Assembly (NCBI GenBank): GCA_045600105.1
Contig: JAZRXG010000049.1
Location: 304 to 64,303 of the forward strand
Source of the DNA: Eubacteriales bacterium
Lineage (GTDB): Bacteria > Bacillota > Clostridia > Oscillospirales > CAG-382
Length of the DNA stretch: 64,000 bases
Direction of reading: 5' to 3'
In this document: one piece after another, positions 8,356 through 30,190 of the stretch
Layout of the letters: every line of letters begins with the position of its first letter
How positions within the stretch are numbered: position 1 is the first letter of the stretch
Made by a program: the position numbers and the translations under genes
Notes under the pieces: generated by a model
The model's input: only the letters and a program-made list of their open reading frames with translations
What the model was told of the DNA's origin: nothing
Databases searched by the model: none

Positions 8356-9045
8356 TTATTTGCCGCTTTTTTCGAGAATTGAATTTATGACTTCCCCCGC
8401 GAGTATTGTACCGGCGGCGGCAGTCACGCACGAAAGTGAGCCGACCGTTCTGCCTTCGCCGACCTTTGACGGCAGTTCGGAAGAACAGACGGTCTTTAGT
8501 TTTTTTACCCCTTCTTTGCGGAGCCTTTGTCTGAGCGCTTTTGCGAGCGGATCGTTTGACGTTGAGAATACGTCAACGACGTCGAAGCACTGCGGTTTGC
8601 GGCGGTTGCCCGCCCCCATCGACGATATGATACCGACGCCGAGCGACGTGCAGTTCTTTATGAGCAGCGTCTTGCAGTCGAGCGAATCGATGGCGTCGAC
8701 GACGTAATCGTAAGACGCAAGGTCAAATTCGCCCGCAGTTTCGGCGTTGTAGCGCATTGGGCGCGACACCGCGGCGCAGGACGGATTTATCGAGCGGATG
8801 CGTTCCGCCGCCACGTCGGTCTTGTGCCTTCCGATGGTATCAAGCGTTGCGTACAGCTGTCGGTTCAGGTTGGTTTCGGAGTAAACGTCGTCGTCGATCA
8901 GTTCGATCCTTCCGATGCCCGCTCTCGCAAGGCACTCGACGGCATACGATCCCACCCCGCCCACGCCGAAAACGGCAACGGTCGAGTTTTGAAGTATATT
9001 TACCGCGTTTTCGCCCAAAAGGGTCAAGGTTCTTTCATTCCACAT
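8356..9045 (-). CDS. tcdA: tRNA threonylcarbamoyladenosine dehydratase (ThiF/HesA family)
   Basis: VFGVGGVGSYAVECLARAGIGRIELIDDDVYSETNLNRQ Rossmann/E1-like motif; 229 aa. Confidence 0.85.
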   Translation of the reverse strand: MWNERTLTLLGENAVNILQNSTVAVFGVGGVGSYAVECLARAGIGRIELIDDDVYSETNLNRQLYATLDTIGRHKTDVAAERIRSINPSCAAVSRPMRYNAETAGEFDLASYDYVVDAIDSLDCKTLLIKNCTSLGVGIISSMGAGNRRKPQCFDVVDVFSTSNDPLAKALRQRLRKEGVKKLKTVCSSELPSKVGEGRTVGSLSCVTAAAGTILAGEVINSILEKSGK

Positions 9046-9109: not shown

Positions 9110-10225
9110 TCAGTTATCGCTTCTTCTGTTATTGCTGAGCATGGAAATTATGCTGTCGATCTCATTGCCGGAAGCGTTTTTCTGAGGAGCAGACTGAGCA
9201 AAAGAAGTTGCCGCAGCGGGAGCGGAAGTGGTCGCTTCGGCTGCCTTTCTGTATTCGTACGAGCCTTTTTCTTCCTCAAAGCCGGTAGCGATGAGGGTGA
9301 TGTGCATTTCGTCCTCGAGCTGAGTATCGAACGCGACACCGAAGATAACGGTAGCGTCGGGATGTGCCTCGTTGGTGATGAGTGTGACGGCTTCGTCGAT
9401 CTCGTCAAGACCGATATCGGGAGACGAGGTGATGTTGACGATGATGCCCTTTGCTCCCGCGATGCTGGTTTCGAGAAGCGGAGAAGACATTGCCATCTTG
9501 GCTGCCTGCTCGGACTTGTCCTTGCCCTTCGCCGCGCCTACGCCCATGTGAGCAAGGCCCGCGTTGGTCATGACGGTGGAAACGTCGGCAAAGTCGAGGT
9601 TGATATAGCCGTTGGTGGTGATGAGTTCGCAGATGGACTGAACGCCCTTGCGGAGGATGTCGTCGGCTTCCTGGAAAGCGTTGAGGAAGGTAATCTTTTT
9701 ATCGGTGAGGAGCTTGAGTCTTTCGTTGGGGATAACGAGGAGAGAGTCAACGTACTGAGAAAGCTTTGCGATCCCCTCTTCGGCGTTGACCATTCTGTTT
9801 CTGCCTTCGAATTTGAAGGGCTTGGTAACGATGGCAACGGTGAGGATGCCGAGAGATCTTGCGACCTTAGCGACAACGGGAGCAGCGCCCGTTCCGGTTC
9901 CGCCGCCCATACCCGCGGTGATGAATACCATATTTGCGCCCTGGATCGCCTCGGTGATCTGTTCGAGGGATTCTTCGGCGGCTTTTTCACCGAGTTCGGG
10001 GTTGGCGCCTGCGCCGTGACCCTTGGTCACCTTGTCGCCGATGGCGATCTTGGTGGGAGCAAGAGACTTGACGAGGATCTGAGTATCGGTGTTGACGTTG
10101 ATATAATCAACGTTGTCGGCATTGATGTTCATGGAAACCATACGGTTGACCGCGTTTCCGCCGCCTCCGCCTACGCCGATGACTTTGATGCTTACGTTGG
10201 TGTTGTAGCCGTTTTCGTTAGACAT
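9110..10225 (-). CDS. ftsZ: cell division protein FtsZ, downstream paralogue
   Basis: GGGTGTG tubulin signature, IGVGGGGGNAVNRM, NLDFADV T7 loop, variable linker and a short C-terminal peptide (EIDSIISMLSN). GGAGG RBS. Starts 30 nt after the upstream ftsZ. Confidence 0.95.
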   Translation of the reverse strand: MSNENGYNTNVSIKVIGVGGGGGNAVNRMVSMNINADNVDYINVNTDTQILVKSLAPTKIAIGDKVTKGHGAGANPELGEKAAEESLEQITEAIQGANMVFITAGMGGGTGTGAAPVVAKVARSLGILTVAIVTKPFKFEGRNRMVNAEEGIAKLSQYVDSLLVIPNERLKLLTDKKITFLNAFQEADDILRKGVQSICELITTNGYINLDFADVSTVMTNAGLAHMGVGAAKGKDKSEQAAKMAMSSPLLETSIAGAKGIIVNITSSPDIGLDEIDEAVTLITNEAHPDATVIFGVAFDTQLEDEMHITLIATGFEEEKGSYEYRKAAEATTSAPAAATSFAQSAPQKNASGNEIDSIISMLSNNRRSDN

Positions 10226-10255
10226 TTATTATTCCTCCGATTTATTATCTATATT

Positions 10256-11317
10256 TTATCTTCTGTTGAGGAGATCAAAGATCTCGTTTATGTTCTGTTC
10301 CGCTTTGGGAGCTTCTTCGGTCTTGGAAGGCGCGGGTCTTTCGGGCATAGAAGGAGCCTGAACGGCTGATCTGCCGTTCTTTTCGAATCCGGTGGCGATG
10401 AGGGTTATGCGCATTTCGTCCTCGAGGGTGGGATCGAAAACGGTACCGAAGATGACGGTGGCATCGGGATGTGCTTCGTCGGTTATCATGGTAGCCGCCT
10501 GATCGATCTCGTCAAGGCTGATATCGGGCGACGCGGTGATGTTGACGATGATGCCCTTCGCGCCGTTGATGTTGGTCTCGAGAAGAGGAGAAGACATTGC
10601 CATCTTGGCAGCCTGCTCGGATTTGTCCTTGCCCTTTGCGGCGCCGACGCCCATGTGAGCAAGTCCCGCGTTGGTCATGACGGCGCATACGTCCGCGAAG
10701 TCGAGGTTGATGTAGCCTTCGTTGAGGATGAGCTCGGAAATGGAACGGACACCCTTGCGGAGTATGTCGTCGGCTTCCTGGAAAGCGTTGAGGAAGGTTA
10801 TCTTTTTATCGGTAAGGAGCTTGAGTCTTTCATTGGGGATGACGATGAGAGAATCGACGTATTCGGAAAGCGCGTCGATACCGGCTTCAGCCTGAGCCAT
10901 TCTGTGCTTGCCTTCGAAATTGAAGGGCTTGGTGACGATGGCAACGGTGAGGATGCCGAGTCCCTTGGCGATCTGGGCAACTACGGGAGCAGCGCCCGTG
11001 CCGGTGCCGCCGCCCATGCCGGCGGTGATGAATACCATATTCGCTCCCTTGAGAGCTTCTTTGATCTGTTCAACGGAATCCTCGGCGCTCTTTTTGCCGA
11101 GTTCGGGATTGGAGCCTGCGCCCTGACCTCTCGTGACTTTGTCGCCGATGGCGATCTTGGTAGCAGCGATAGTCTTGTAGAGTGACTGAGTATCGGTATT
11201 AACGTTGATATATTCAACGTTTTCAAGGTTATCGGCTATCATTCTGTCGACCGCGTTGCTTCCGCCGCCGCCTATGCCGATGACTTTGATTATTACGTTG
11301 CCGTCAAATGTTTCCAT
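10256..11317 (-). CDS. ftsZ: cell division protein FtsZ, upstream paralogue
   Basis: IGIGGGGSNAVDRM, GGGTGTG, NLDFADV; C-terminal peptide NEIFDLLNRR; 353 aa. Confidence 0.95.
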   Translation of the reverse strand: METFDGNVIIKVIGIGGGGSNAVDRMIADNLENVEYINVNTDTQSLYKTIAATKIAIGDKVTRGQGAGSNPELGKKSAEDSVEQIKEALKGANMVFITAGMGGGTGTGAAPVVAQIAKGLGILTVAIVTKPFNFEGKHRMAQAEAGIDALSEYVDSLIVIPNERLKLLTDKKITFLNAFQEADDILRKGVRSISELILNEGYINLDFADVCAVMTNAGLAHMGVGAAKGKDKSEQAAKMAMSSPLLETNINGAKGIIVNITASPDISLDEIDQAATMITDEAHPDATVIFGTVFDPTLEDEMRITLIATGFEKNGRSAVQAPSMPERPAPSKTEEAPKAEQNINEIFDLLNRR

Positions 11318-11366
11318 ATTTATTCCCTTTCCGACTTTATATGATTATTCTATATTACTTTATCGT

Positions 11367-11395
11367 AGTATAAAACAAATCCGTCGTTTTTTCAA
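11367..11395 (-). promoter_or_regulatory. putative sigma-A promoter upstream of the ftsZ pair
   Basis: On the minus strand, TTGAAA (11390-11395), a 17 nt spacer, then TATACT (11367-11372), in the 119 bp ftsQ-ftsZ gap. Confidence 0.5.
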
Positions 11396-11436
11396 TAGTT
11401 TTTTCGAAAAAATCGTTCATTTCCGCAGATTTTTTC

Positions 11437-12249
11437 TTAATTTTCGCCGCTTGGCGAGAATACCGCCTCTTTTTTGTCCGATATATCGAGCGTTCCCGTG
11501 TAATCGTCGTAAAGATGCTCCATTATCTTGATGAAAAAGCGTATCTTGTCCTCGCAGTCGTCGACACCGCCGAAATACACTCTGAGCCTTCCCTCGTAGC
11601 CGAAGCAAATATCGAATCTGTTCGGTGCCTCGATATAGTCGACCTTGTCGGTCAGCTCGTAGAGCTCGAGCATCTGCCAGAGCTCGTCCAGAGAGGTGAG
11701 CAGTTTTTCTTCGTTGAACGACAGTTTTTCACCGACGACGCATTCCCTGACGTATCCGGTCTTCAGCGGAAGCGCGTCCTCACTGTAAGCCATTTCGAGC
11801 ACGTCGAAATCCTCGGAAAGCAGGTATGTGTTGTTTTTGACGTCGATGCGGAAGCGAGCCTTTTCTTCCTTCACGTTGATGATGACCGTGGACGGCAGCT
11901 TTCGCGTAACGTCCGCGCTCTTTATGTACGGGAAGAGCGAGCATATCTCATCCTCGAGCGAGTCGGCGTCGAACGCATAAAGCGAGCCGCCTGTTTTGAG
12001 CGATATCGCCGCCTTTATCTCCTCGTCGGTGTACCTCGTGTTCCCTTTTACGGTTATCGTGTTTATCTTGAAAAACAGAGCTAAGACAACAGCGAAAAAA
12101 CTGACGGCCGCCGCCGCGATGATGACGAGATAAACTATCATCCGCATGCGGTTCTTTCTGCCGAGCGGTTTATCGAGGAGTTCCTCTTTTATTAAATTGT
12201 TCTCGGCAAGCCGAAGTTCTTCGTCGACGTTCTTATTTTTGTTTGACAA
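11437..12249 (-). CDS. ftsQ: cell division protein FtsQ/DivIB
   Basis: Single TM helix, then a POTRA-like segment (INTITVKGNTRYTDEEI). Located after murG in the dcw cluster. Confidence 0.8.
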   Translation of the reverse strand: MSNKNKNVDEELRLAENNLIKEELLDKPLGRKNRMRMIVYLVIIAAAAVSFFAVVLALFFKINTITVKGNTRYTDEEIKAAISLKTGGSLYAFDADSLEDEICSLFPYIKSADVTRKLPSTVIINVKEEKARFRIDVKNNTYLLSEDFDVLEMAYSEDALPLKTGYVRECVVGEKLSFNEEKLLTSLDELWQMLELYELTDKVDYIEAPNRFDICFGYEGRLRVYFGGVDDCEDKIRFFIKIMEHLYDDYTGTLDISDKKEAVFSPSGEN

Positions 12250-13342
12250 GCTTCATTACCTCGTCGGTTATTTTTTCGAGTGCGTCGGGTTTTCCGTATT
12301 CTTTCATTTTTGCTGCCATCTTCTCACGCTTTTCGCTGTCGGAAGCGAGAGACATGACACATTCGGCAAGCAGTTTGCCGTTCAGCTCGCTTTCGCGGAA
12401 TACCTCAGCGGCTCCCGCGTCCTTGAGGACGGCGGCGTTCTTGTACTGATGGTCCTCGGCGACGTTGGGCGACGGGATGAACACCGTTGCTCTGCCGAGG
12501 CAGGCGAGTTCGGAATAGGTCATCGCTCCCGCTCTGCATATCACTATATCGGCGGCTGCCTGTCTGAGCGGCATATCGTAGATATATTCCCTTATTTCAA
12601 AGCCTTCGCGTTTGTCAAGACCTTTTTCGTTTACTGCCTTGCTGAACTGTTCCCAGCCGATATGTCCGATGGCGTGGAGCTGCTTGATCCTCTTGTCATC
12701 CTTGTATATCTCCATCGCGTCGATGCAGTATTCGTTGACCTTGTCCGCTCCGAGGCTTCCGCCGTAGGACAGAACGTATATATCGTCGTCGGAAAGTCCG
12801 AGCTGTCTTCTCGCTTCACTGCGCGTGAAGGTGTTTTTCTTGACGGGGTTGCCGGCAAGAACGAGTTTGTTCTGAACGGACGGGTCGAAAAGCTTGTGGC
12901 TTTCGATAAAGCTGGTGCAGACGGTGTTGACGCATTTTGAAAGCTTTTTGGTCGTGACTCCCGGGTAGGCATTCTGTTCCTGGATGAGGGTGGGGATGCC
13001 GAGAGAAGACGCCGCTTTTACGCAGGGCCAGCTTGCGTAGCCGCCCGTGCCGATGACTATGTCGGGGGAGAACGCCTTGACGATCTTCTTGGCGTTTCTC
13101 ACCGAGGTGAGTGCCTTGTAGGCGACCTTGACGTTTTTGAGCGTAAACGAACGGTGGAAGCCGTAGACCTCGACCGTATTGAGCTTGTAGCCCGCTTCGG
13201 GAACGAGCTTGGTCTCGAGTCCGCGTTCGGTCCCGACGAATTCTATGACCGCGTCTTTATCGACGTTTTTGATAGACGAGGCAATGGCAAGAGCGGGGTT
13301 GATGTGTCCGCCGGTGCCGCCTCCGCAAAGTAGATATCTCAT
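12233..13342 (-). CDS. murG: UDP-N-acetylglucosamine--N-acetylmuramyl-(pentapeptide) pyrophosphoryl-undecaprenol GlcNAc transferase MurG
   Basis: GGTGGHINPALA N-terminal motif; 369 aa; dcw context. Confidence 0.95.
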   Translation of the reverse strand: MRYLLCGGGTGGHINPALAIASSIKNVDKDAVIEFVGTERGLETKLVPEAGYKLNTVEVYGFHRSFTLKNVKVAYKALTSVRNAKKIVKAFSPDIVIGTGGYASWPCVKAASSLGIPTLIQEQNAYPGVTTKKLSKCVNTVCTSFIESHKLFDPSVQNKLVLAGNPVKKNTFTRSEARRQLGLSDDDIYVLSYGGSLGADKVNEYCIDAMEIYKDDKRIKQLHAIGHIGWEQFSKAVNEKGLDKREGFEIREYIYDMPLRQAAADIVICRAGAMTYSELACLGRATVFIPSPNVAEDHQYKNAAVLKDAGAAEVFRESELNGKLLAECVMSLASDSEKREKMAAKMKEYGKPDALEKITDEVMKLVKQK

Positions 13343-14583
13343 TCTATCTCTCCTCTTTCGGTATAGGAATATTTGGATATTGAGAGCACGAGTCCCATCT
13401 CGGCAAGCGAAATGAGGAGCGCCGTTCCGCCGTAGCTGAAGAACGGGAGGCTTATGCCCGTTGAAGGGATCGTATTGGTGACGACCGCGATATTCAGTAT
13501 CACCTGAAGCGCGAGCTTGGTCATAAGTCCCGCGACGATGAGCTGACCGAATCTGTCTTTGCAGTTTTTGGCGATGATGAATCCGCGTATGATGAGGGCG
13601 GCGAAGAGCGCTATCGCGGCGAAAGCGCCGACGAATCCGAGTTCTTCACAAAGAATGGCAAAAATGTAGTCGTTCTGCGGTTCGGGCAGATAGCCGTGCT
13701 TCTGCATCGACTGTCCGAGTCCGACTCCCCAGAATCCGCCTGAGGAGATCGCGAAAAGTGACTGCGAAGGCTGCCAGCCTCCCCATCCCGTCGCTTCATC
13801 GCGCATATACTTTATGGGGTCCTGCCAGATAAGAAGACGCTTTGCGGCGTGTCCTATGTTTTCGCTTTTTGAAAGCAGGTCGATTATCTTCTGAATATGT
13901 GTGACGACGTAGGTCACGGCCGCTCCTCCGACTGCGCTGAGGAAGATGAGAAGCTTGCCGTTGGTGCCGCCGAGTATCATCATGCAGAAAACGAGGGTGA
14001 ATGTGATGATCGCCGCGGAAAGATGGTTCTGGAGTATGAGTATGCCGACGCTCACCGCCATCATGGCGGCAAACGGAAGGAATCCGTATCTGAACGTCCG
14101 CATCTTATCCTGTTTCAATGCCGCCCATCTCGCGCAGTAGACGACCGTCATTATCTTGAGTAATTCGGACGGCTGGAAGTTGACGCCGCCTATCACTATC
14201 CATCTTTTGGCACCGAGTCCGATATAACCGAACACGAGAACGGCGGCGTTCAGCAGGAGCACGGCGTAGTAGACTATCGGCGTGAGCTTCATTACAAGCT
14301 CGCGTTTGCCGAATTTGATGACGCACATCATCACGAGAAGTCCGAGAGCGATGAAAAATATCTGACTTTTGGAGAAATAATAACTGTCACCGAATTTGCT
14401 CTGCGCGTAAGCGTAGCTCGATGTGAATACCATGACCGTGCCGAAAGCAAGCAAAACGAGAAGCAGATAAAGGAACGGTCTGTCAACACCGCCCATCCAA
14501 CGGATGATGATGGTCTGCTTTTTGGCAGTTGTCTTATTTGCCGTCGGCTTTTTGACGGTTCTGCCGGTTTTTTCAGAATCCAT
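13339..14583 (-). CDS. ftsW: SEDS family peptidoglycan glycosyltransferase FtsW/SpoVE
   Basis: Polytopic membrane protein with PSELLK and GISLPFFSYGGT motifs; 4-nt overlap with murG. Confidence 0.9.
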   Translation of the reverse strand: MDSEKTGRTVKKPTANKTTAKKQTIIIRWMGGVDRPFLYLLLVLLAFGTVMVFTSSYAYAQSKFGDSYYFSKSQIFFIALGLLVMMCVIKFGKRELVMKLTPIVYYAVLLLNAAVLVFGYIGLGAKRWIVIGGVNFQPSELLKIMTVVYCARWAALKQDKMRTFRYGFLPFAAMMAVSVGILILQNHLSAAIITFTLVFCMMILGGTNGKLLIFLSAVGGAAVTYVVTHIQKIIDLLSKSENIGHAAKRLLIWQDPIKYMRDEATGWGGWQPSQSLFAISSGGFWGVGLGQSMQKHGYLPEPQNDYIFAILCEELGFVGAFAAIALFAALIIRGFIIAKNCKDRFGQLIVAGLMTKLALQVILNIAVVTNTIPSTGISLPFFSYGGTALLISLAEMGLVLSISKYSYTERGEIE

Positions 14584-14619: not shown

Positions 14620-15609
14620 TCAGAGTTTGATTATTATCAGATACGACAATGCCGCGATCACCACGGTGAAGGCGAGGAACATTCCGACGATCTGCACTTC
14701 GGTAAGTCCGCAGAGCTCGAAGTGATGATGTATCGGCGCCATTTTGAAGAATCTCTTCTTCCCTTTCGTAAGCTTGAAAACCGCCACCTGGATCATTACC
14801 GAAATGCCTTCGAGAACGTAGACGAGACCGGCAAGGATCATGATGAGGGGACGTCCGACGCGCATCGCGCAGCAGACGAGCATCGATCCGAGGAAGAGGG
14901 AGCCCGTGTCGCCCATGAATATCTTTGCGGGATGGAAGTTGAAAATGAGGAACGCGGCAAGAGCGCCGAGAAGAGCCATTTCAACGAACGCCATATTGTG
15001 CAGCGATTCCCGGCAGGCGACGAAGAGGAACATTGCGGCAAGCACGAAAGCCACGCTTCCGGCAAGTCCGTCAAGTCCGTCGGTGAGGTTGGCGGTATTG
15101 ATTATATAAACCATCAGAACGCCGATGATTATGTAATAGAATACGCCGAGGTCGACCATCGAGGATGTGAACGGTATATTCACCGACGTGGTGATGAGTC
15201 CGCATTTCGCGAGAGCGAAAAGATAACCGGCTGCAGCCGCGGACTGAAGAACGAGCTTCTGTATCGCGGTGAGCCCCTGATTGCGTTTTTTGAAAAGCTT
15301 GACGTAGTCATCTATAAAACCGATGCCCGCGTTGAGAAGAGCGAAGCAAATATTGATGACGAAAAAACTGCTGCCCGCGTTGATGTCGCCTATGATCGCC
15401 ATGACGGCTATCGCGACCGCGCTGCCCGTGATGAAGAAGAGTCCGCCCATAACGGGGGTGCCCTCCTTGCACTTATGCCAGTTGGGTCCGATTTCGAGTA
15501 TTTTCTGACCGAGTTTCACTTTTCGAAGGAGCGGAATGAATACCTTGTAGAGCGCGAAAGAAACGGCAAACGACGTCAGAAAAGCTATAACGAGATGTAA
15601 TGTGTTCAT
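14620..15609 (-). CDS. mraY: phospho-N-acetylmuramoyl-pentapeptide transferase MraY
   Basis: NLTDGLDGLA, GDTGSLFLG and APIHHHFE motifs; 329 aa. Confidence 0.95.
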   Translation of the reverse strand: MNTLHLVIAFLTSFAVSFALYKVFIPLLRKVKLGQKILEIGPNWHKCKEGTPVMGGLFFITGSAVAIAVMAIIGDINAGSSFFVINICFALLNAGIGFIDDYVKLFKKRNQGLTAIQKLVLQSAAAAGYLFALAKCGLITTSVNIPFTSSMVDLGVFYYIIIGVLMVYIINTANLTDGLDGLAGSVAFVLAAMFLFVACRESLHNMAFVEMALLGALAAFLIFNFHPAKIFMGDTGSLFLGSMLVCCAMRVGRPLIMILAGLVYVLEGISVMIQVAVFKLTKGKKRFFKMAPIHHHFELCGLTEVQIVGMFLAFTVVIAALSYLIIIKL

Positions 15610-16943
15610 AATCCGGCTTCCTTTATTGTTTCATCAAGTCCCATGCGGTTGCTTCCCTTGAAAAGCATCACATCGCCGTTTTGAACGATGCTTCTGATAA
15701 AGGACGCCGCCTGACTTTTTTCTTCGATGCTGAAATAACGAGAAGTGCATTTTCTCGGTTTCTTTTCCCAATTCTCACCGACGAACAGAACGATATCGGC
15801 GATATCCGCCGCACAAGATGCCACTTCCTCGTGATAACGCCGCGTGTCTCCGCCGAGCTCGAGCATATCACCGAGAACTGCGATCCTGCGTCCCGTTTTG
15901 GAAGCGAGCACCGAAAGCGACGCTTTCATGGATTCGGGAGCGGCGTTATAGCAGTCGGCAATGACGGTGACTCCGTTCTTTTCGTAAATGCGCTGTCTGT
16001 TTCCGGTGGGAACGAAGTTTTCAAACGCTTTCGCCGCGTTTTCGGGGGAAATGCCGCAAAGGACGCCCGCCGCGAACGCGTAGAGCGAATCCTTGACGGT
16101 ATGAAGTCCCTCGGCAGGCAGGCTTACGCTTATCCTGCCGGACGGGTAAACTATGTCGTAATTGGTATTTCTGCCGTCAAAACCGATATTTTCGGCTTTG
16201 AAATCGCATCTTTCGGAAAAGCCGCAGAACATGACTTTCTGCTTCACCTTGTCACGCATAGCGTATTCGGCATCCGAATCGCCGTCGGTGACGAGATATC
16301 CGTCGTCTCTTTCGCCGACGGTTATATCGAATTTTTCGGCTCTGATGTTTTCCCTGCTGCCGAGATACTCCATGTGCGAAGTGCCGACGCAGGTGATGAC
16401 CGAAAGGTACGGCTTTGCCATATTCGAAAGGCGGGATATTTCGCCGCGAAGCGACATTCCCATTTCGAGTACGGCGTATTCGTATTCGTCTTTTTCAATG
16501 GAGCAGACGAGCATCGGAGAGCCGATGACGCTGTTTCTGTTTCCGCCCGAAACGAACGTCCTGTGCTCGGACGCGAACACGAGCCCGCACAGGTCCTTGG
16601 TCGTCGTTTTGCCGACGCTACCGGTGACGGCGATGACCTTCAGGTCGTAAAGTGCCTTTTCTTTCCAGTATCCGGCGATCTCGCACAGTGCCTTTTCGGT
16701 GTTTTCGACGAGGATATTGTTTTCGTTGAAATACTCTTCTTCCGAAACGACACAATGATATCCTTTGGCGTTTAGGTCGGGAACAAATTTGTGTCCGTCT
16801 ACCCTTTCACCTATCAGAGCGGAATAAAGTCCGCCGTCACACGGTGTGCGTGAATCGGTGAAAAGCCCTTTGACGACGGCTTTTCCGTCGCCTTTATATT
16901 TTCCGTGAGCGGCATTTGCCGCCTCTTCGAGCGTGATATACAT
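15606..16943 (-). CDS. murF: UDP-N-acetylmuramoyl-tripeptide--D-alanyl-D-alanine ligase MurF
   Basis: Mur ligase P-loop TGSVGKTTTK; 445 aa; overlaps mraY by 4 nt and shares one base with the pbp stop codon. Confidence 0.9.
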   Translation of the reverse strand: MYITLEEAANAAHGKYKGDGKAVVKGLFTDSRTPCDGGLYSALIGERVDGHKFVPDLNAKGYHCVVSEEEYFNENNILVENTEKALCEIAGYWKEKALYDLKVIAVTGSVGKTTTKDLCGLVFASEHRTFVSGGNRNSVIGSPMLVCSIEKDEYEYAVLEMGMSLRGEISRLSNMAKPYLSVITCVGTSHMEYLGSRENIRAEKFDITVGERDDGYLVTDGDSDAEYAMRDKVKQKVMFCGFSERCDFKAENIGFDGRNTNYDIVYPSGRISVSLPAEGLHTVKDSLYAFAAGVLCGISPENAAKAFENFVPTGNRQRIYEKNGVTVIADCYNAAPESMKASLSVLASKTGRRIAVLGDMLELGGDTRRYHEEVASCAADIADIVLFVGENWEKKPRKCTSRYFSIEEKSQAASFIRSIVQNGDVMLFKGSNRMGLDETIKEAGL

Positions 16944-19159
16944 TACTCTATATCCTCATCATAAATGAACGTGACTTCCATAATAGTGCCCACGGTGACT
17001 TCCGTGCCCGGTTCTATCGACTGGGAAAGCACGAAGCAGTTGTCGTATTCTTTGTTATAAACGCCTTCGACGATAACGTTGAGGTTGTTGTCGGTGATCC
17101 ATTTGAAGACCTGTTCGGGGGACATCTTGTTGAGGTTTCTTATCTTGACCTGCTGTTTTTCCATGCCGGATTCGGTATAGAGGATGACGGTGCCTTTTTC
17201 GGATATCGTGGTGCCGACTCTGGGAAGCTGGTCGACGACCTTACTGCCGTTGCCCTTGATGACGCATTTGATGCCCTTGCTTTCGATGTCGTATTTCGCT
17301 CTGTCAACGTCGGCGGTGATGTAGTCGCTGACCTTGTATTCCTTGAGAGCACCGTCGTGGGACGGATATATTTCAAGATAAGGGAGAACTTCGGAAAGCA
17401 CGTTTGCGACTACCGGAGCGGCGCACTGGCTGCCGTAGTATTTTCCGCCGGTAGGCTCGTCAACCACGATGAGTATGGCGATCTCGGGGTCTTCGGTGGG
17501 AGCGAACGAAACGCAGCTTGCGATGTAGTATTCTTCGTCGGGGAGCGCGTCTTTTCTGCCGAGCTTCTGGGACGTACCCGTTTTGGACGAAATATTATAA
17601 CCCGAAACGGACGCGTTTTTTGTCGAATTTTTGAGTGCGTCGAGAACCTGCTTCGCGGTGGAGGCGCTTATTACTGCGCGTTTCGACGAAAACTCTGTGC
17701 TTTCGGTGTAGTTGCCGTTGGGATCGACGAAGCCTTTGATAAGGTGAGGCGTCGTAAGATAACCGCCGTTGGCGATGCAGGAGACCGCCGCGATATGCTG
17801 CAGCATGGTGATGGACATAGACTGTCCGAACGCGCAGTTCGCGAGGTCGAGCTGATTCGCGAGGCTTTCGTAATATATGCTTCTCGCTTCGCCGAGTACG
17901 TCGGAACCCGTCTTGTCGGTATAGCCGAAGGCGTCGAAATATTTCATGAACATATCTCCGCCGATGTCAAGACCCATCTGAACGAACGCGGGGTTGCACG
18001 AATTGACGAGCGCCTGGGTGACCGTCTGATCGCCGTGCACGTTTCCGGTGTGGCAATGGATGGGAACGCCGAGAACGTTATAGACGCCGCTGCAGGTATA
18101 ATGCGAATCAAGCGTGAAAACGCCCTCTTCGATGCCTATGGCGGTGGTGATTATCTTGAAAGTGGAGCCCGGCTCGTAAAGCTCGGTCGCGACTTTGTTC
18201 TTCCACATTTCAAAGAGCAATTCGTTTTCGTAATTCTTCTTTTCTTCGTCGGTGCCCTCGAACGCTTCGTATTTTTCGAGATATTCGCCGGTGAGATGAC
18301 CGTAGGTGTTGAGGTCGAATTCATCGATGCTTGCCATCGCGAGTATTTCGCCGGTGTCGACCTGCAGCACGATGCCTCTCGCACCGAAGGTCGGTTTGTG
18401 TTCTTCGACCGCGTCCATGAGGTATTTGGTGAGTATCGACTGTATCGTTTTGTCGATGGTAAGCACGGCACTGTCGCCGTCCTTGGAGTCGATGTAGCTT
18501 TCGTACTGGAACGGGAGCTCGTTGCCCTGCCCGTCCTGACCCTGGATCGCTTTGCCGTTGATGCCGCTGAGGATGTCCTCGTAGGTCTTTTCGATGCCGT
18601 AAAGTCCCTTGTTTTCGCCGCCGACGAAGCCGATGATATGGCAGGCGAGGCTGTCGTAGGGATAATAGCGCTTGGTGGATTCTTCAAGGCATACCTGACG
18701 GTAGAGGTCGTTCTTTTCGATAAATTCGCGAACCGCGTTTTCTTCGCTTTCTTCGACGTTTTTCTTGATTATCTGATATTTCGAGTATTTTCTGCCGGCT
18801 CTTTCAAGAACGTCGGCTTTGTCGGCGCCGAGTATTCTCGCGAGCCCCGACGCGATAAGCTCCGCCTGAGCGTCGTCAACGATGTCGTACGGAGAAATAA
18901 AGACCGTCTGCACCGTGGAGCTCGTGGCGATTATTTTCATATTGCGGTCGTATATGTTTCCGCGTTTCGCGTATATGGTCAGTTCGGACGTATACTGATC
19001 GAGTGCGGCGTTTCTGTTGCTTTCGGCATCGATGAGCTGTAGGTCGGCAAGGCGGTATACGAGCGCACAAAGACATAGCAAGAGAAGCGTCATAACAACG
19101 CATCCTCTTGCTATTGTTGATTTTCCTGTTGTTTTGTTGAATGTATTATTCCTGTTCAA
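16943..19159 (-). CDS. class B penicillin-binding protein (FtsI/SpoVD/PBP2B type) with two C-terminal PASTA-like repeats
   Basis: SxxK (GSTFK), SxN (NSCN), KTG (SKTGTS); N-terminal membrane anchor; 738 aa. Confidence 0.9.
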   Translation of the reverse strand: MNRNNTFNKTTGKSTIARGCVVMTLLLLCLCALVYRLADLQLIDAESNRNAALDQYTSELTIYAKRGNIYDRNMKIIATSSTVQTVFISPYDIVDDAQAELIASGLARILGADKADVLERAGRKYSKYQIIKKNVEESEENAVREFIEKNDLYRQVCLEESTKRYYPYDSLACHIIGFVGGENKGLYGIEKTYEDILSGINGKAIQGQDGQGNELPFQYESYIDSKDGDSAVLTIDKTIQSILTKYLMDAVEEHKPTFGARGIVLQVDTGEILAMASIDEFDLNTYGHLTGEYLEKYEAFEGTDEEKKNYENELLFEMWKNKVATELYEPGSTFKIITTAIGIEEGVFTLDSHYTCSGVYNVLGVPIHCHTGNVHGDQTVTQALVNSCNPAFVQMGLDIGGDMFMKYFDAFGYTDKTGSDVLGEARSIYYESLANQLDLANCAFGQSMSITMLQHIAAVSCIANGGYLTTPHLIKGFVDPNGNYTESTEFSSKRAVISASTAKQVLDALKNSTKNASVSGYNISSKTGTSQKLGRKDALPDEEYYIASCVSFAPTEDPEIAILIVVDEPTGGKYYGSQCAAPVVANVLSEVLPYLEIYPSHDGALKEYKVSDYITADVDRAKYDIESKGIKCVIKGNGSKVVDQLPRVGTTISEKGTVILYTESGMEKQQVKIRNLNKMSPEQVFKWITDNNLNVIVEGVYNKEYDNCFVLSQSIEPGTEVTVGTIMEVTFIYDEDIE

Positions 19160-19225: not shown

Positions 19226-19735
19226 TCAATCGATGAAATTCTTGAAAACTTCGCCGAAGCCGCTGAGGAGAATACCGATACCGGATCTGTCGGAATCGTA
19301 TTTGTAAGTCGTTCCGCGGTCTTCGGGGAGCGCGGTGATATTTATGCGGGTGAGTCCGCCGGACTTGACCATGTCAAGCTCGTTCACGGCGTATTCTTCA
19401 AAGTCAACGAGGTCGTTCTTTTTGTCAAGTCTCTGTCCAAGCTTGACGGCGCTCTTCTGAAGCTCGGTGAGCTCGTCGCGGAGCTCGGCAATGTCACTGT
19501 TGTAATTGTCGATCTCGGCATAGTTCATTACCACGAACACGAGAAGGAGCGTGATGGTAACGACGGCGAAAAGAGCCCCTATGGAAATAGGAGTTTTGGG
19601 CTTTCTTTTGCTGTTGACGACGGTGACGCGGGTGGAAAGCGCGTTATCTTTTTTGGCGACGGCAAGTGCTTTATTCTGAGCGTTTGTCTCTTTTTTCGAC
19701 GCTGCATTTACGTTTTTTTCTGTTGTCTTTTTCAT
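19226..19735 (-). CDS. ftsL: FtsL-like cell division protein (single TM plus coiled coil)
   Basis: Located between rsmH and pbp. Basic N-terminus, one TM helix, then a heptad-like region (IAELRDELTELQKSAVKL). Confidence 0.65.
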   Translation of the reverse strand: MKKTTEKNVNAASKKETNAQNKALAVAKKDNALSTRVTVVNSKRKPKTPISIGALFAVVTITLLLVFVVMNYAEIDNYNSDIAELRDELTELQKSAVKLGQRLDKKNDLVDFEEYAVNELDMVKSGGLTRINITALPEDRGTTYKYDSDRSGIGILLSGFGEVFKNFID

Positions 19736-19770: not shown

Positions 19771-20697
19771 TCAGAGTTTTTCCGCTATCCTTAGCTTAGC
19801 CGAATGTGAACGGCTGTTTTCTTCATTTTCCTTTTCAGAGCAGGTGACGGCCTTTCTGGTCAGCACCTTCACCACGGGTTTCTTTCCGCATACGCAGACG
19901 GGAAAGTTCTTGGGGCATTCGCAGGGGTTTTCGAGCTTTGCGAGCGTTGTCTTCGCTATTCTGTCTTCAAGCGAGTGGAACGTGATTATCGCGAGTCTTC
20001 CGCCGGGATTCAGCATATCGGCGGCGGTCCTGAAGGCATCCTCGAGGCAGTCAAGTTCTCCGTTCACGTATATGCGGAGCGCCTGAAAGCATCTTTTGGC
20101 GGGGTTGCCTTCTTTTTTATAAAACGCGGGGCAGGCGGAAGCGATGAGTGACGCAAGCTCCGACGTCGTTTCTATTTGCTTGGTTTCGCGGTAAGCGACT
20201 ATTTTTGCCGCTATCTTTTTTGAATACTTCTCTTCGCCGTATCTGAAAAATATGTCGGCAAGGTCGTATTCCGACATCGAATTTACCACGTCTTCGGCGG
20301 TCTCGCCCTTGGTGGTATCGAATCTCATGTCGAGCTTCGCGTCGCGTATATACGAGAATCCGCGTTCGGCGGTATCGATCTGATATGAGGAAACGCCGAG
20401 GTCGAACAGAACTCCGTCGACTTTTTCGAATCCGTATTCCGCGGCTGCCGTCCTCATTTCCTTGAAGTTGCCGTGCCACAGAAGAAGCCGAGGGTCCTTG
20501 ACCGTTTCCCTTGCGTTCGCGAGAGCGTCGTTATCGAGGTCAATGCCTATCACCCTGCCGTTTTCATTAAGCAGAGATAAGATCCTTTTGGTGTGACCGC
20601 ATCCGCCGAGGGTGCAGTCGATGTATACGCCGTCGGGTCTGACGTTGAGCCCTTCGAGCGTTTCGTCGGCCATGACCGAATAATGTCTGAATTCCAT
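19771..20697 (-). CDS. rsmH: 16S rRNA (cytosine1402-N4)-methyltransferase RsmH
   Basis: DCTLGGCGH and DLGVSSYQ motifs; 308 aa; starts 1 nt after the mraZ stop. Confidence 0.95.
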   Translation of the reverse strand: MEFRHYSVMADETLEGLNVRPDGVYIDCTLGGCGHTKRILSLLNENGRVIGIDLDNDALANARETVKDPRLLLWHGNFKEMRTAAAEYGFEKVDGVLFDLGVSSYQIDTAERGFSYIRDAKLDMRFDTTKGETAEDVVNSMSEYDLADIFFRYGEEKYSKKIAAKIVAYRETKQIETTSELASLIASACPAFYKKEGNPAKRCFQALRIYVNGELDCLEDAFRTAADMLNPGGRLAIITFHSLEDRIAKTTLAKLENPCECPKNFPVCVCGKKPVVKVLTRKAVTCSEKENEENSRSHSAKLRIAEKL

Positions 20698-20698: not shown

Positions 20699-21118
20699 TC
20701 AGAATCCGCAGCTTATGAGGTCGTTCGTGACGTCCTCGGAGGTCATGAATTCCTGCTCGCTCTCCCAGACGGAGGCAGCCCATATCTCGATGTGGTTGTC
20801 GTTGCCGATTATGACGACGTCTTTTTCGAGAGAGGCGAACTGTTTGTAGGCGGGCGTGACGGTGATGCGTCCCTGAGCGTCGAGCACTCCGTCGACAGTT
20901 CCGGCGAAGAAGTAACGTCTCGCTCTTCTCTGGCTCGTTTCGGGAAGCGATTTGATCTTCTGCGCGAATTCTTCCCATTCGCCGAGCGGATAAATGTTGA
21001 CGCATTTGTCGAAGCCTTTGCATATCTTGAACTCGTCGCCGAGCAATTCGCGAAGCTTGGCAGGTACGGAGACACGGCCCTTGCTGTCCATGCTGTACCA
21101 ATATTCGCCTGTAAACAT
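20699..21118 (-). CDS. mraZ: division/cell wall cluster transcriptional regulator MraZ
   Basis: Two SpoVT/AbrB-like halves (DSKGRVSVP and DAQGRITV); 139 aa. Confidence 0.95.
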   Translation of the reverse strand: MFTGEYWYSMDSKGRVSVPAKLRELLGDEFKICKGFDKCVNIYPLGEWEEFAQKIKSLPETSQRRARRYFFAGTVDGVLDAQGRITVTPAYKQFASLEKDVVIIGNDNHIEIWAASVWESEQEFMTSEDVTNDLISCGF

Positions 21119-26130: not shown

Positions 26131-27102
26131 TTAATCTCTTCTCTGATAGAAGATGTAAGCCGACAGGATACCTGCGACGAGCGCGAGTATCAATGCTACG
26201 AGCAGGAAGTATACCCAGCTCATTGCCGTGGCTCTTACCATACCGCCGGATCCGTTGAAGATGCCGTCGATGAATTTCATAACGGTGTTGGACTGAGACG
26301 TGAACGCGTCGATGACCGTATAGATAGTGTTGACGAGGATCATCGGAGAGATCATCGGGAAGGTTATCTTCCAGAAGGTTTCCCAAGCGCTGGCGCCTTC
26401 CATCTTACAGGATTCGTAGATGGCGGGTGAGATGGACTGAAGACCCGCAAGGAATATAAGCATCTGAACACCGGACTTATTGATTATATCGTAAACCGAG
26501 TTGACGATATCGACAACGTAATTGACGAGTTCCGTACCTACTTTCATGCTGCTGAAGAATCGCTGAACGTCCATTACGTTCAGTATCTGCTGTCCTGCGT
26601 TAGCGGCGTTTTCCATTACGTCCGAGTCCATATTCGTCATTGATTCCTGAACAGACGCGAGTGTGTTCTGGAGGTCGATGGATTCGACGATACCGGTGGA
26701 AACGATGACGGGGATGAAGAATATTGCTCTGAAGATCGCTCTGCCCTTCATTTTCTGGTTAAGAAGAACCGCCATGAAGAGCGAGAAAATAACGATCGCG
26801 GGAATGTTGAAGAGGAGCTCTTTAACACTCGTGATAAGCTTCTGAGTGAAGTCAGCGTTTTCGAGGAACGCGTATCTGAAGTTGTCAAGACCTACCCAGA
26901 TCTCCTCGTAACCGCCGCCTTTCATTGCTTTGGTTTCGATGAAGCAATACTTGATGGAGTCAAGTATCATGGGCATATAGATAAGCACGAAGCCGAGAAG
27001 GAAGGGTGCAATAAAGAACCAACCATAACGAGCTTTTTTCTTATCGAGGGATTTGCTCTTACGTTTCTTCGCCTTAACGGGCAATGTTTTTGCATTATCC
27101 AT
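26131..27102 (-). CDS. sugar ABC transporter permease (MalF-like), pair 2
   Basis: EAA loop ESCKMEGASAWETFWKITFP; 323 aa. Confidence 0.9.
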   Translation of the reverse strand: MDNAKTLPVKAKKRKSKSLDKKKARYGWFFIAPFLLGFVLIYMPMILDSIKYCFIETKAMKGGGYEEIWVGLDNFRYAFLENADFTQKLITSVKELLFNIPAIVIFSLFMAVLLNQKMKGRAIFRAIFFIPVIVSTGIVESIDLQNTLASVQESMTNMDSDVMENAANAGQQILNVMDVQRFFSSMKVGTELVNYVVDIVNSVYDIINKSGVQMLIFLAGLQSISPAIYESCKMEGASAWETFWKITFPMISPMILVNTIYTVIDAFTSQSNTVMKFIDGIFNGSGGMVRATAMSWVYFLLVALILALVAGILSAYIFYQRRD

Positions 27103-30100: not shown

Positions 30101-30169
30101 AAGGACGGACGGTGCAACGAACGTAAGTGCGAGGACAAGCACCAAAAGTGTTATAAGTGATTTTTTCAT
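27095..30169 (-). CDS. large secreted protein of unknown function, possibly glycoside-hydrolase-like (may correspond to DUF5696)
   Basis: Signal peptide MKKSLITLLVLVLALTFVAP...AADD; 1024 aa. The C-terminal half has alternating beta/alpha-like segments resembling a TIM-barrel glycosidase (EGWCNDG, VPFYGMVIHGY). The family name is from memory only. Confidence 0.75.
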   Translation of the reverse strand: MKKSLITLLVLVLALTFVAPSVLSTVSFAADDSSNVNIWDTLDPAYTSAEFNSVEARIAGDTNIAKMELILVNEGYALYNDPLNGEVICLKLAPPNAEGEYEMDENGVYKYVGYYCTNPYKVGQSKSVEKEQDTSVSVKKTLLSQIVIKYQENTNETTLESYASSALFDQITCKKIRGGLRVEYTIGREETTYLVPRQIRFDKWMELLIQISENSAKSKVTRTFMAYYTLRATSVEQLTSWGDTFKSTRKDSISDVTWEYLFQSKKDYLATNPPDPGAWGIYAGVYESYVVTQRDKSNKTLKENEEKFPCTKNFAIMVFEGTAKAAELRKVEQYVKLYTDYSKERLEEDHAETEYTANDKIPALFKLAVEYTLDENGLYIRLNAGKIRFDSSNYTLQSISFLPYAGAVDTHDEGFIFSPDGSGTMFSLKDIAGKQFTTTSQIYGADFAYHTISGASKEVVRYPAFGAVETVVTYEEYTDEDVVIDPETGEEIVTEITKTRDIKTNYGYLAMLTAGDSLAKLTVNNGGSLHMYASAYTTFNPRPSDTYRLNGGISAGSDAMWTVESKRRYTGDYGLRIFILDGENASIAGMANTYRNYLENQGYFAKLEKDNDSSEDIPLYIQTLGAIDTKKTFLGVPVTKSVPLTSFEDTITILTNLKEMAGITNVKVLMEGWCNDGMIPLVPSEIEICDALGGEKKFKELIAYAADKANGNIQLFPNLDFVLAAKDEMFDGFDSDDLAKTIDDRSTGLRYYDPLYQGYNNARLGIISSNVVEKFYEKAMKDYKKYDIGGIAVTTLGQYLSSDFNEDDPLNREDSKKIVTRLIKKIREDNVKVLVSGGNYYVWPYVTDIIEVPLDDSRYKYTSASVPFYGMVIHGYIDFAGTAINLAGDYQYQLLKTIENGADPFFVIAYENTSELKNYNSNYLLSKYYSVKYSIWFNDIKNTYNTLNNALKDVKYSLIVGHEYLDPNKKVVKVTYDNGTVFLINYLETDYEVTFGDKEIVIKANDFVKTTVEDTEEKGEVVNG

Positions 30170-30190
30170 AATACTTTTTCCTTCCTTTCT

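What the first reader, a model, noticed from the sequence alone, without database searches (positions are those of the whole stretch)
9110..11436. Two tandem, apparently intact ftsZ paralogues and no ftsA at the end of the dcw cluster
Two full-length FtsZ genes (353 and 371 aa) lie head to tail, 30 nt apart, each with its own GGAGG RBS. By eye they are roughly three-quarters identical over the GTPase core. Both keep the GGGTGTG signature and the NLDFADV T7 loop, so both should polymerise and hydrolyse GTP. They differ in the N-terminal tail, the linker and the C-terminal peptide (..NEIFDLLNRR versus ..EIDSIISMLSNNRRSDN). That peptide is the region that normally docks FtsA, SepF, ZapA and similar partners. 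The usual ftsA between ftsQ and ftsZ is missing. Most bacteria carry a single ftsZ. Two co-expressed copies with different partner-binding tails suggest heteropolymers or division of labour, for example vegetative versus asymmetric or sporulation septa.
Basis: partly seen in the sequence, partly recalled or inferred. Interest (0 to 1): 0.62.

Follow-up and report, generated by a model that had tools for sequence, protein, structure and literature searches.

The report
Conserved tandem pair of ftsZ genes
An uncultured gut Clostridia bacterium carries two intact, adjacent copies of the cell-division gene ftsZ, made by one old duplication that a whole group of relatives has kept; this is an uncommon but not unprecedented arrangement, and the two proteins most likely work together in one division ring.

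Summary
Two full-length ftsZ genes lie head to tail on the minus strand at the end of the dcw cluster: ZA (10256-11317, 353 aa) and ZB (9110-10225, 371 aa), 30 nt apart. They are 79% identical over the core, and both keep every universally invariant FtsZ residue.

It is not an assembly artefact. Contigs from two other metagenomes span the junction, and the same ftsQ-ZA-ZB arrangement occurs in at least 8 lineages of uncultured Clostridia/Eubacteriales. Upstream copies group with upstream copies. A maximum-likelihood test favours one tandem duplication inside this lineage.

ZB kept the ancestral sequence. ZA evolves about 1.3-2.4 times faster. Both are under strong purifying selection.

- Both C-terminal peptides are variants of one clade-specific motif, and they are nearly identical in deep two-copy lineages.
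- ftsA is also missing between ftsQ and ftsZ in three single-copy relatives, so its absence is ancestral and unrelated to the duplication.

The layout is operon-like, with one promoter-like site, no terminator in the spacer and one terminator after ZB. This favours co-expression and mixed polymers over a vegetative/sporulation split. Whether ftsA or sepF lie elsewhere in the genome could not be tested.

The parts
11437..12249 (-). ftsQ/divIB (270 aa), the last dcw gene before the ftsZ pair
   Evidence: Pfam POTRA_1, E 9.5e-18
11318..11436 (-). 119-nt ftsQ-ZA intergenic region; there is no room for ftsA
   Evidence: Sequence and ORF list
11367..11395 (-). Sigma-70-like promoter candidate, TTGAAA-17-TATACT, upstream of ZA
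   Evidence: 10 of 12 matches; a consensus match only
11324..11332 (-). ZA Shine-Dalgarno-like GGAAAGGGA (not GGAGG)
   Evidence: GGAA(A/G)GGGA is conserved upstream of ZA in 7 of 8 loci (L010 has TAGGAGAA)
10256..11317 (-). ftsZ-A (ZA, 353 aa): the upstream, faster-evolving paralogue
10259..10288 (-). ZA C-terminal peptide NEIFDLLNRR (derived crown-group variant of the clade motif); predicted helix
10226..10255 (-). 30-nt ZA-ZB spacer with the ZB GGAGG at 10234-10238; no promoter-like or terminator-like site on this strand
9110..10225 (-). ftsZ-B (ZB, 371 aa): the downstream, conservative, ancestral-like paralogue
9113..9166 (-). ZB C-terminal peptide NEIDSIISMLSNNRRSDN (ancestral-type motif); predicted helix
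9068..9096 (-). Intrinsic-terminator-like hairpin (13 bp, 7 GC) plus T-run, directly after the ZB stop codon
8356..9045 (-). ThiF-family gene. Not part of the division unit, but its position after ZB is conserved in window, L001, L002, L010, L015 and L017

Best explanation
The region holds two intact paralogous ftsZ genes, produced by a single old tandem duplication of the last gene of the dcw cluster in a lineage of uncultured gut and rumen Clostridia (Eubacteriales).

Shown:
- Both copies keep all GTP-binding, T7-loop and fold determinants, a disordered linker and a helical C-terminal peptide.
- Both are under strong purifying selection.
- The pair is conserved in the same order in at least 8 lineages.
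- ZB kept the ancestral sequence. ZA took a burst of change after the duplication and still evolves about twice as fast.

Inferred:
- The two genes are transcribed together, from the dcw read-through and/or a promoter in the ftsQ-ZA gap, and terminate after ZB.
- They are therefore present together and co-assemble into mixed protofilaments in one Z ring. ZB would act as the conservative scaffold and ZA as a subunit that tunes filament properties or regulator sensitivity.
- Since ftsA is not next to ftsZ in this whole group, the ring is probably tethered through the shared C-terminal peptide by SepF or a similar anchor encoded elsewhere.
For: Identity and integrity:
- Pfam Tubulin plus FtsZ_C in both copies.
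- Best PDB match is B. subtilis FtsZ 2VAM, E 6e-110.
- Window ZA and ZB keep 87 of 87 columns that are invariant across 25 reference FtsZ proteins from Clostridia, Bacilli and Proteobacteria.
- AlphaFold models give the FtsZ secondary-structure order, a low-confidence linker and a C-terminal helix.

Not an artefact:
- The paralogues differ at about 20% of positions.
- DNA contigs of independent runs X1 (10127-10487) and X2 (9919-10476) span the junction.
- The same tandem occurs in L001, L002, L010, L011/L012, L013/L014, L015 and L016.
- NCBI accession numbers of the two proteins are consecutive in several MAGs.

Single internal duplication:
- Upstream copies are monophyletic in 95% of NJ bootstraps.
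- ML favours ((ZA,ZB),single-copy relatives) by 14 lnL (RELL 0.945), and by 31 lnL over any deeper placement of ZA.

Asymmetry:
- All 10 fixed ZA/ZB differences are ZA-derived.
- ZA stem is 0.098 versus ZB 0.027 substitutions per site.
- dN is 1.3-2.4 times higher in ZA. dN/dS is 0.044-0.062 for ZA and 0.026-0.046 for ZB.

Co-expression:
- A promoter-like site lies only upstream of ZA, a terminator only after ZB, and the spacer is 30-32 nt in 5 of 8 lineages.
- Metatranscriptome contigs X9 and X10 cover parts of both genes.

Precedent for co-polymers of FtsZ paralogues: A. tumefaciens FtsZ_AT and FtsZ_1 (10.1101/2025.09.29.679267).
Against: - No experiment or read-level RNA evidence shows one transcript. 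No RNA contig spans the spacer, and raw metatranscriptome reads gave zero hits.
- Co-assembly is inferred only from conserved interfaces.
- L002, L010 and L016 have longer spacers (57-115 nt), which could hold their own signals.
- NJ distance trees recover ZA+ZB as an exclusive clade in only 14-38% of replicates. The KH-type z score for ML is 1.56, so an older duplication followed by loss in relatives is not formally excluded.
- The ML model was a home-made BLOSUM62-derived matrix on 18 taxa.
- Whether SepF or FtsA exist in the genome is unknown.
Confidence: 0.6

Rival explanations
1. The duplicates are redundant or serve gene dosage: either FtsZ can build the ring alone, and the pair persists for dosage or robustness, as reported for the two full-length FtsZ proteins of Segatella copri.
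For: Both copies are fully intact with the same C-terminal motif class. In S. copri, only knocking down both ftsZ mRNAs caused filamentation (10.64898/2026.04.17.719208).
Against: Pure redundancy rarely survives this long. The pair is kept in at least 8 diverged lineages (dS saturated between them), with dN/dS below 0.07 in both copies and a consistent set of 10 paralogue-specific residues.
Confidence: 0.18
2. Temporal or spatial division of labour: one paralogue builds vegetative septa and the other builds asymmetric or sporulation septa, or another structure.
For: The N-terminal peptides and linker starts differ consistently. Crown-group ZB has a K-K-S-Y-E-Y-R-K-A segment, predicted helical at low confidence, that ZA lacks. 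L010 and L016 have long spacers that could hold a second promoter.
Against: The layout is operon-like, with no promoter or terminator signal in the 30-nt spacer. The C-terminal peptides are nearly identical in deep lineages. No sporulation gene was seen next to the pair or in the window. Both genes are represented in the same gut metatranscriptomes.
Confidence: 0.1
3. ZA is mainly a regulator (brake or poison subunit) of the ZB ring, like the accessory alphaproteobacterial FtsZ paralogues whose overexpression blocks division.
For: ZA is the fast-evolving copy. In deep lineages it breaks otherwise invariant residues: L010_ZA has A71T and P75V in the T3 loop plus A114I, P115S and R143K; L013/L015 ZA has G68R. 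ZA has the weaker Shine-Dalgarno sequence. A. tumefaciens FtsZ_1 is a precedent.
Against: In the window and the crown group, ZA keeps all invariant residues and a full linker and C-terminal peptide. It sits first in the transcription unit. The known regulatory paralogues are truncated; this one is not.
Confidence: 0.1
4. Assembly artefact: a falsely duplicated ftsZ, or two strains collapsed into one contig.
For: One public contig (L017) carries a ZA/ZB chimera. This shows that k=31 assemblers can mis-join the two genes at a shared 35-nt stretch.
Against: The copies are only 79-81% identical. The junction is seen in independent runs and in 8 lineages, with orthologous grouping by position.
Confidence: 0.01

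Closest known systems
Canonical bacterial FtsZ (e.g. B. subtilis FtsZ, PDB 2VAM; S. aureus FtsZ 3VOA)
   Same: Both ZA and ZB have the GTPase domain, FtsZ_C domain, G-box, T7 loop, disordered linker, C-terminal peptide, and a position at the 3' end of the dcw cluster.
   Different: There are two copies in tandem instead of one. The C-terminal peptide lacks the usual D-I-P-x-F-L core and instead reads [DE]-I-x-x-I-I-x-M-L-N-[KR], as in the single-copy relatives of this Clostridia group.
Plastid FtsZ1/FtsZ2 (FtsZB/FtsZA) and archaeal FtsZ1/FtsZ2 dual-ring systems
   Same: Two full GTPase-competent paralogues are kept over long evolutionary time. One is conservative and one faster-evolving. A likely working analogy is a stable scaffold subunit plus a dynamics-tuning subunit that co-assemble (PMC12343686 abstract; 10.1101/2020.06.04.133736 abstract).
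   Different: The origin is independent: the duplication lies inside Clostridia. Both copies keep the C-terminal peptide, whereas, from general knowledge, plastid FtsZ1 lacks it. The genes are adjacent and probably co-transcribed.
Alphaproteobacterial accessory FtsZ paralogues (A. tumefaciens FtsZ_1/FtsZ_3, S. meliloti FtsZ2, Magnetospirillum FtsZm)
   Same: A bacterial ftsZ duplication retained in a clade. Co-polymerisation with the main FtsZ is documented for FtsZ_1.
   Different: Those paralogues are usually truncated (no linker or C-terminal peptide) and are not described as a tandem pair in the dcw cluster. Here both copies are full length and tandem.
Segatella copri DSM 18205 two full-length FtsZ proteins (bioRxiv 10.64898/2026.04.17.719208)
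   Same: A gut bacterium with two full-length FtsZ proteins that each keep the core and the C-terminal region.
   Different: It is in a different phylum and is an independent event, reported as redundant within a species or genus. Here the pair is old, clade-wide, asymmetrically diverged and tandem within the dcw cluster.
Second ftsZ copies noted in a survey of FtsZ/tubulin evolution (e.g. 'Bipolaricuta' as the survey spells it, i.e. Bipolaricaulota; PMC9871819)
   Same: A rare bacterial lineage with two ftsZ genes.
   Different: That survey states that the additional copy lies outside the dcw cluster. Here both copies are inside it, adjacent to each other.

Membership tests
FtsZ (bacterial cell-division tubulin homologue): both ZA and ZB | Tubulin/FtsZ GTPase domain plus FtsZ C-terminal domain | tested here: met
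   PF00091 (163 and 171 bits) and PF12327 (119 and 111 bits), all far above the gathering thresholds. PDB FtsZ hits reach E 6e-110.
FtsZ (bacterial cell-division tubulin homologue): both ZA and ZB | Nucleotide-binding and catalytic signature residues: T1 GGGG, T3 GAG, T4 GGGTGTG, T5 E/R, T6 N, T7 NxDxxD | tested here: met
   Window ZA and ZB keep 87 of 87 columns invariant in 25 reference FtsZ proteins, including all of these residues.
FtsZ (bacterial cell-division tubulin homologue): both ZA and ZB | Disordered C-terminal linker followed by a short conserved C-terminal peptide | tested here: met
   Tails of 42 aa (ZA) and 55 aa (ZB). pLDDT is below 50 over 314-337 (ZA) and 319-354 (ZB). Terminal helices are predicted at 339-352 and 353-365. 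The motif is conserved across orthologues.
FtsZ (bacterial cell-division tubulin homologue): both ZA and ZB | Position at the distal end of the dcw cluster | tested here: met
   The order is mraZ-rsmH-ftsL-PBP-mur ligase-mraY-ftsW-murG-ftsQ-ZA-ZB.
FtsZ (bacterial cell-division tubulin homologue): both ZA and ZB | GTP-dependent polymerisation and Z-ring formation | not testable with these tools
   This needs biochemistry or imaging.
Archaeal FtsZ1/FtsZ2 or plastid FtsZ1/FtsZ2 families (orthology) | Descent from those ancient duplications | tested here: not met
   ZA and ZB are each other's closest relatives, nested among single-copy Clostridia FtsZ. Deeper placements are 31 lnL worse.
Truncated accessory FtsZ paralogues (alphaproteobacterial type) | Loss of the linker and/or C-terminal peptide, or a remodelled GTPase domain | tested here: not met
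   Both copies are full length with intact signatures in the window. Some deep-lineage ZA copies show T3-loop changes.
FtsA-dependent Z-ring tethering (canonical ftsQ-ftsA-ftsZ arrangement) | ftsA immediately upstream of ftsZ | tested here: not met
   The gap is 119 nt. There is no FtsA/SHS2_FTSA hit in the window. ftsA is absent at the same place in L003, L018 and L019.
FtsA-dependent Z-ring tethering (canonical ftsQ-ftsA-ftsZ arrangement) | ftsA (or sepF, zapA, ezrA) anywhere in the genome | not testable with these tools
   Only 64 kb of the genome and about 20-kb flanks of relatives could be read.

The most novel reading that the evidence does not exclude
This Clostridia lineage has independently evolved an obligate two-subunit Z ring. 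In this reading ZB is the membrane-tethered scaffold and ZA is a specialised co-subunit that sets filament turnover or regulator (e.g. MinC) sensitivity, and neither is sufficient alone. That would be a bacterial counterpart of the plastid FtsZ1/FtsZ2 and archaeal FtsZ1/FtsZ2 systems, encoded as a two-gene operon.
Probability: 0.3. Interest if true: 0.7.

Novelty: new member of a known kind. Interest (0 to 1): 0.5.

Why it matters
Bacterial ftsZ duplications are rare, and the described ones are mostly truncated or lie outside the dcw cluster. I found no description of a tandem, full-length, clade-wide and asymmetrically diverged pair in the searchable literature, although the proteins sit in public databases labelled simply 'FtsZ'.

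One lineage, labelled 'Ruminococcus sp.', is common: its ZA-type protein occurs on 463 contigs.

The pair is a natural experiment on how a homopolymer-forming cytoskeletal protein becomes a two-subunit system. That is the same transition that produced plastid and archaeal dual FtsZ rings and alpha/beta-tubulin. The sequences are small and easy to express, so co-assembly can be tested in vitro.

The pair also matters for annotation and for marker-gene work. ftsZ is not single-copy in these gut taxa, and short-k-mer assemblers can fuse the two genes, as in L017.

Tried and rejected
(1) First NJ tree, rooted on the most distant hits P0048 and P0057. It placed ZA outside ZB plus all relatives. This was rejected once those 'outgroups' proved to be upstream copies of further tandem pairs. 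Re-rooting on Bacilli and Proteobacteria put ZA next to ZB.

(2) Dating from synonymous divergence. pS between paralogues in one genome (0.41 in the window) is lower than between orthologues of diverged genomes (about 0.7). But pS to the single-copy L003 is equally low (0.49-0.51). So pS tracks shared codon usage rather than time. No clear gene-conversion tract was found.

(3) The C-terminal peptide as the basis for retaining the pair. Rejected, because the ZA-type peptide is confined to the crown group and also occurs in a single-copy relative.

(4) The C-terminal peptide as a direct membrane-binding helix that replaces FtsA. This is weak evidence and was not pursued.

(5) Read-level evidence of co-transcription. 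Raw metatranscriptome runs X39, X41 and X45 gave zero reads. The Logan RNA contigs do not span the spacer.

(6) Rfam and tRNA scans of the window found nothing.

(7) The first full ML run timed out. It was rerun with 18 taxa and site patterns.

(8) Genome-wide search for ftsA and sepF was not possible.
Full report
**What is there**

On the minus strand the window carries a complete dcw cluster:

| Gene | Coordinates |
|---|---|
| mraZ | 20699-21118 |
| rsmH | 19771-20697 |
| ftsL-like | 19226-19735 |
| PASTA-containing PBP | 16943-19159 |
| Mur ligase | 15606-16943 |
| mraY | 14620-15609 |
| ftsW | 13339-14583 |
| murG | 12233-13342 |
| ftsQ/divIB | 11437-12249 |

Two ftsZ ORFs follow ftsQ. 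ZA is 10256-11317 (353 aa). ZB is 9110-10225 (371 aa). They are 30 nt apart.

- Both match Pfam Tubulin/FtsZ and FtsZ_C far above threshold.
- ZA, the copy queried, matches solved FtsZ structures, with B. subtilis 2VAM at E 6e-110.
- They are 79% identical over 312 aa by BLASTP, and 80.7% over the trimmed core.
- One detail needed correction. Only ZB is preceded by GGAGG. ZA has GGAAAGGGA, and this difference is conserved in relatives.

**Integrity**

I aligned the pair with 25 reference FtsZ proteins: single-copy Clostridia, B. subtilis, a staphylococcal FtsZ (PDB 4M8I) and two Proteobacteria. Eighty-seven columns are invariant in the references. These include the T1 GGGG, T3 GAG, T4 GGGTGTG, E139/R143, N166 and the T7 N208/D210/D213 (B. 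subtilis numbering). Window ZA and ZB keep all 87.

AlphaFold2 models (mean pLDDT 73 and 69) show the expected order of FtsZ strands and helices, a low-confidence linker and a terminal helix over the C-terminal peptide. So the refuting condition 'one copy carries inactivating changes in GTP-contact residues' is not met.

**Not an artefact**

- The copies differ at about one position in five, so this is not a repeated assembly of one gene.
- Logan contigs of two independent DNA runs cross the ZA/ZB spacer: X1 at 10127-10487 and X2 at 9919-10476, the latter with only 4 differences.
- The same ftsQ-ftsZ-ftsZ arrangement is present in seven other lineages:

| Locus | Copy sizes (aa) | Note |
|---|---|---|
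| L001 | 354+373 | |
| L002 | 363+369 | |
| L010 | 356+365 | Eubacteriales bacterium OttesenSCG-928-G02 |
| L011/L012 | 357+369 | |
| L013/L014 | 372+369 | |
| L015 | 365+364 | |
| L016 | 365 + a copy cut by the contig end | |

- Several NCBI MAGs give the two proteins consecutive accession numbers.
- The L013-type upstream protein occurs on 463 contigs, labelled 'Ruminococcus sp.'.

**Origin**

Homologue searches split cleanly into a ZA group and a ZB group.

My first NJ tree put ZA outside everything. However, the sequences I had used as the root (P0048, P0057) turned out to be the upstream genes of further tandem pairs. With Bacilli and Proteobacteria as outgroups, ZA-type and ZB-type sequences sit together, nested among single-copy Clostridia FtsZ.

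- Upstream copies are monophyletic in 95% of bootstraps, and downstream copies in 50-58%.
- An exclusive ZA+ZB clade appears in only 14% of NJ replicates with Poisson distances. This rises to 38% with gamma distances, the behaviour expected from long-branch attraction.
- I therefore wrote a maximum-likelihood comparison: BLOSUM62-derived exchangeabilities, empirical frequencies, four gamma categories, 18 taxa and 302 sites.
  - ((ZA,ZB),O) beats (ZA,(ZB,O)) by 14.0 lnL and ((ZA,O),ZB) by 16.8 lnL. RELL supports are 0.945, 0.054 and 0.001. The KH-type z score is 1.56.
  - Placing ZA deeper, outside the basal Clostridia lineages or with Bacilli, costs about 31 lnL.

The best reading is one tandem duplication in the stem of this group. 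It is not a horizontally acquired second ftsZ. An older duplication followed by one loss is not formally excluded.

**Asymmetric divergence**

- Across 12 ZA and 11 ZB sequences there are ten core positions where each paralogue is at least 80% conserved in a different state. At all ten, ZB has the state of the single-copy relatives.
- These ten positions fall in helix H1 (2), H2 (1), the loop before T3 (1), the start of H3 (2), H7 (2), H10 (1) and strand S9 (1), judged on the ZA model.
- The ML stem of ZA is 0.098 substitutions per site against 0.027 for ZB. Mean path length from the duplication node is 0.32 against 0.18.
- Between orthologues, dN is 1.3-2.4 times higher in ZA. Both copies are strongly constrained: dN/dS is 0.044-0.062 for ZA and 0.026-0.046 for ZB.
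- In deep lineages ZA even breaks invariant residues. L010_ZA has A71T and P75V in the T3 loop, plus A114I, P115S and R143K. L013/L015 ZA has G68R. ZB copies show only three conservative deviations.

**The tails**

All FtsZ proteins of this Clostridia group, single-copy or not, end in [DE]-[DE]-I-[ND]-x-I-I-x-[MI]-L-N-[RK]-x-R rather than the textbook D-I-P-x-F-L.

- ZB keeps this motif.
- The ZA variant F-N-E-I-F-D-L-L-N-R-[KR] aligns in register with it.
- The ZA variant is restricted to the crown group (window, L001, L002, L011, P0002-P0016).
- It also occurs in a single-copy relative (P0029, ..NEIFDILNRSRR).
- In L010, L013, L015 and L016 the two paralogues have nearly the same peptide, for example DDDINNIIEMLNKSRNV versus DDDINNIIAMLNNNRKNDF.

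Divergent docking peptides therefore cannot be why the pair was kept, though they may add specialisation in the window's own lineage.

Other differences are the N-terminal peptides and a K-K-S-Y-E-Y-R-K-A segment at the start of the crown ZB linker. That segment is predicted helical at low confidence and is absent from ZA.

**ftsA**

- The ftsQ-ZA gap is 119 nt.
- No ORF of the window matches FtsA, SepF, ZapA or EzrA, including 59 leftover ORFs of at least 55 aa.
- Three single-copy relatives (L003, L018, L019) have the same cluster, with ftsQ directly followed by their one ftsZ.
- So the missing ftsA predates the duplication and is unrelated to it.
- C. difficile is a documented Clostridia member without FtsA, EzrA or GpsB that relies on SepF and ZapA (PMC13584725).
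- Whether these genomes encode FtsA or SepF elsewhere could not be tested with the sequence available.

**Expression**

- The only sigma-70-like site on the coding strand near the pair is TTGAAA-17-TATACT at 11395-11367, upstream of ZA.
- The only strong terminator-like hairpin is at 9096-9068, right after ZB.
- The spacer has neither signal.
- Spacers are 30-32 nt in five of eight lineages, and 57, 96 and 115 nt in L002, L010 and L016.
- Contigs from two gut metatranscriptomes (X9, X10) cover parts of both genes at similar low depth, but none crosses the spacer.
- Three raw-read metatranscriptomes gave no reads.
- Co-transcription is therefore inferred, not shown.

**Mechanism**

The two proteins have identical nucleotide pockets and T7 loops, about 81% core identity and probably a shared transcript. 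Given this, the most likely behaviour is co-assembly into mixed filaments in one Z ring. ZB would be the conservative scaffold, and ZA a subunit that changes filament or regulator properties.

Co-polymers of FtsZ paralogues are documented in A. tumefaciens. Two-FtsZ rings with a stable subunit and a dynamic subunit are the rule in plastids (PMC12343686 abstract). In archaea the two FtsZ proteins act in ring assembly and in constriction (10.1101/2020.06.04.133736 abstract).

The rival explanations are pure redundancy or dosage (as reported for Segatella copri), a developmental split, and a regulatory 'brake' role for ZA. None is excluded. Long retention with asymmetric but constrained divergence argues against simple redundancy. 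The operon layout argues against a developmental split.

**Novelty**

The literature I could search describes bacterial ftsZ duplications as few ('at least five independent'), often truncated, or with the extra copy outside the dcw cluster. One preprint reports two full-length copies in S. copri. I found no paper on a tandem full-length pair in Clostridia.

This is a new, independent and unusually well-conserved example of a known phenomenon, not a new kind of system.

Noticed in passing
L017 1-1867 (Logan ERR6088238); related to window 9110-11317: This contig carries the ftsQ C-terminus, one chimeric ftsZ (P0017: aa 1 to about 150 ZA-like, aa about 160 to 368 ZB-like) and a thiF-like gene. 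The crossover coincides with the longest exact ZA/ZB match, 35 nt in the window, which is longer than Logan's k=31. It is either an assembler collapse or a real unequal crossover that restores a single gene.
   Followed up: partly
L010 7167-8237 (ZA of OttesenSCG-928-G02); L013 8001-9119; L015 3377-4474: ZA copies of deep lineages change residues that are invariant in all reference FtsZ proteins. L010_ZA has A71T and P75V in the T3 loop, plus A114I, P115S and R143K. L013/L015 ZA has G68R. These changes could alter GTP sensing or turnover in those lineages.
   Followed up: partly
window 10256-11317 versus 9110-10225 (ten core codons): All ten fixed ZA/ZB differences are ZA-derived. Six or seven of them coincide with the state found in Bacilli FtsZ (N24, R67, K79, S198, A279, V297, B. 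subtilis numbering). These apparent reversals or convergences helped to mislead the distance trees.
   Followed up: partly
window 14620-19159, and the same region in L010, L011, L013, L018, L019: The dcw clusters of this whole group hold only one Mur ligase gene between the PBP and mraY, and none between mraY and ftsW. This is fewer than the canonical murE-murF...murD layout. L010 has a further Mur ligase gene about 5 kb downstream on the other strand.
   Followed up: no
window 8356-9045; L001 7138-7866; L002 7122-7841; L010 9506-10216; L015 5601-6311; L017 1543-1866: A ThiF-family (E1-like) gene directly follows ZB in most two-copy lineages. It is replaced by other genes in L011 and L013. No functional link to division is evident.
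   Followed up: no
window 9113-9270 (ZB linker start, aa 319-333): Crown-group ZB linkers begin with a conserved K-K-S-Y-E-Y-R-K-A segment, predicted helical at low confidence. Single-copy relatives have D-[VA]-[KR]-R-Q at the same place, and ZA has nothing comparable. This may be an unrecognised short linear motif in the FtsZ linker of this group.
   Followed up: no
window 44722-52044 and 53313-56509: This stretch of ORFs mostly lacks Pfam matches. Scattered among the leftover ORFs are an ECF-type sigma factor, DUF4434, PAP2 and an HI0933-like flavoprotein. I did not work out which ORF gives which hit.
   Followed up: no
window 10903-11039: Read and contig depth spikes 30- to 100-fold here in every run. 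This is the GGGTGTG-coding stretch of ZA, which recruits ftsZ fragments from unrelated taxa. It warns against reading coverage over ftsZ as copy number.
   Followed up: yes
window 27095-37714: There is a large sugar-uptake-like block: a 1151-aa protein with a solute-binding domain, four ABC permease genes, a 1024-aa DUF5696 protein, and a 733-aa Yip1/NHL/TPR protein.
   Followed up: no
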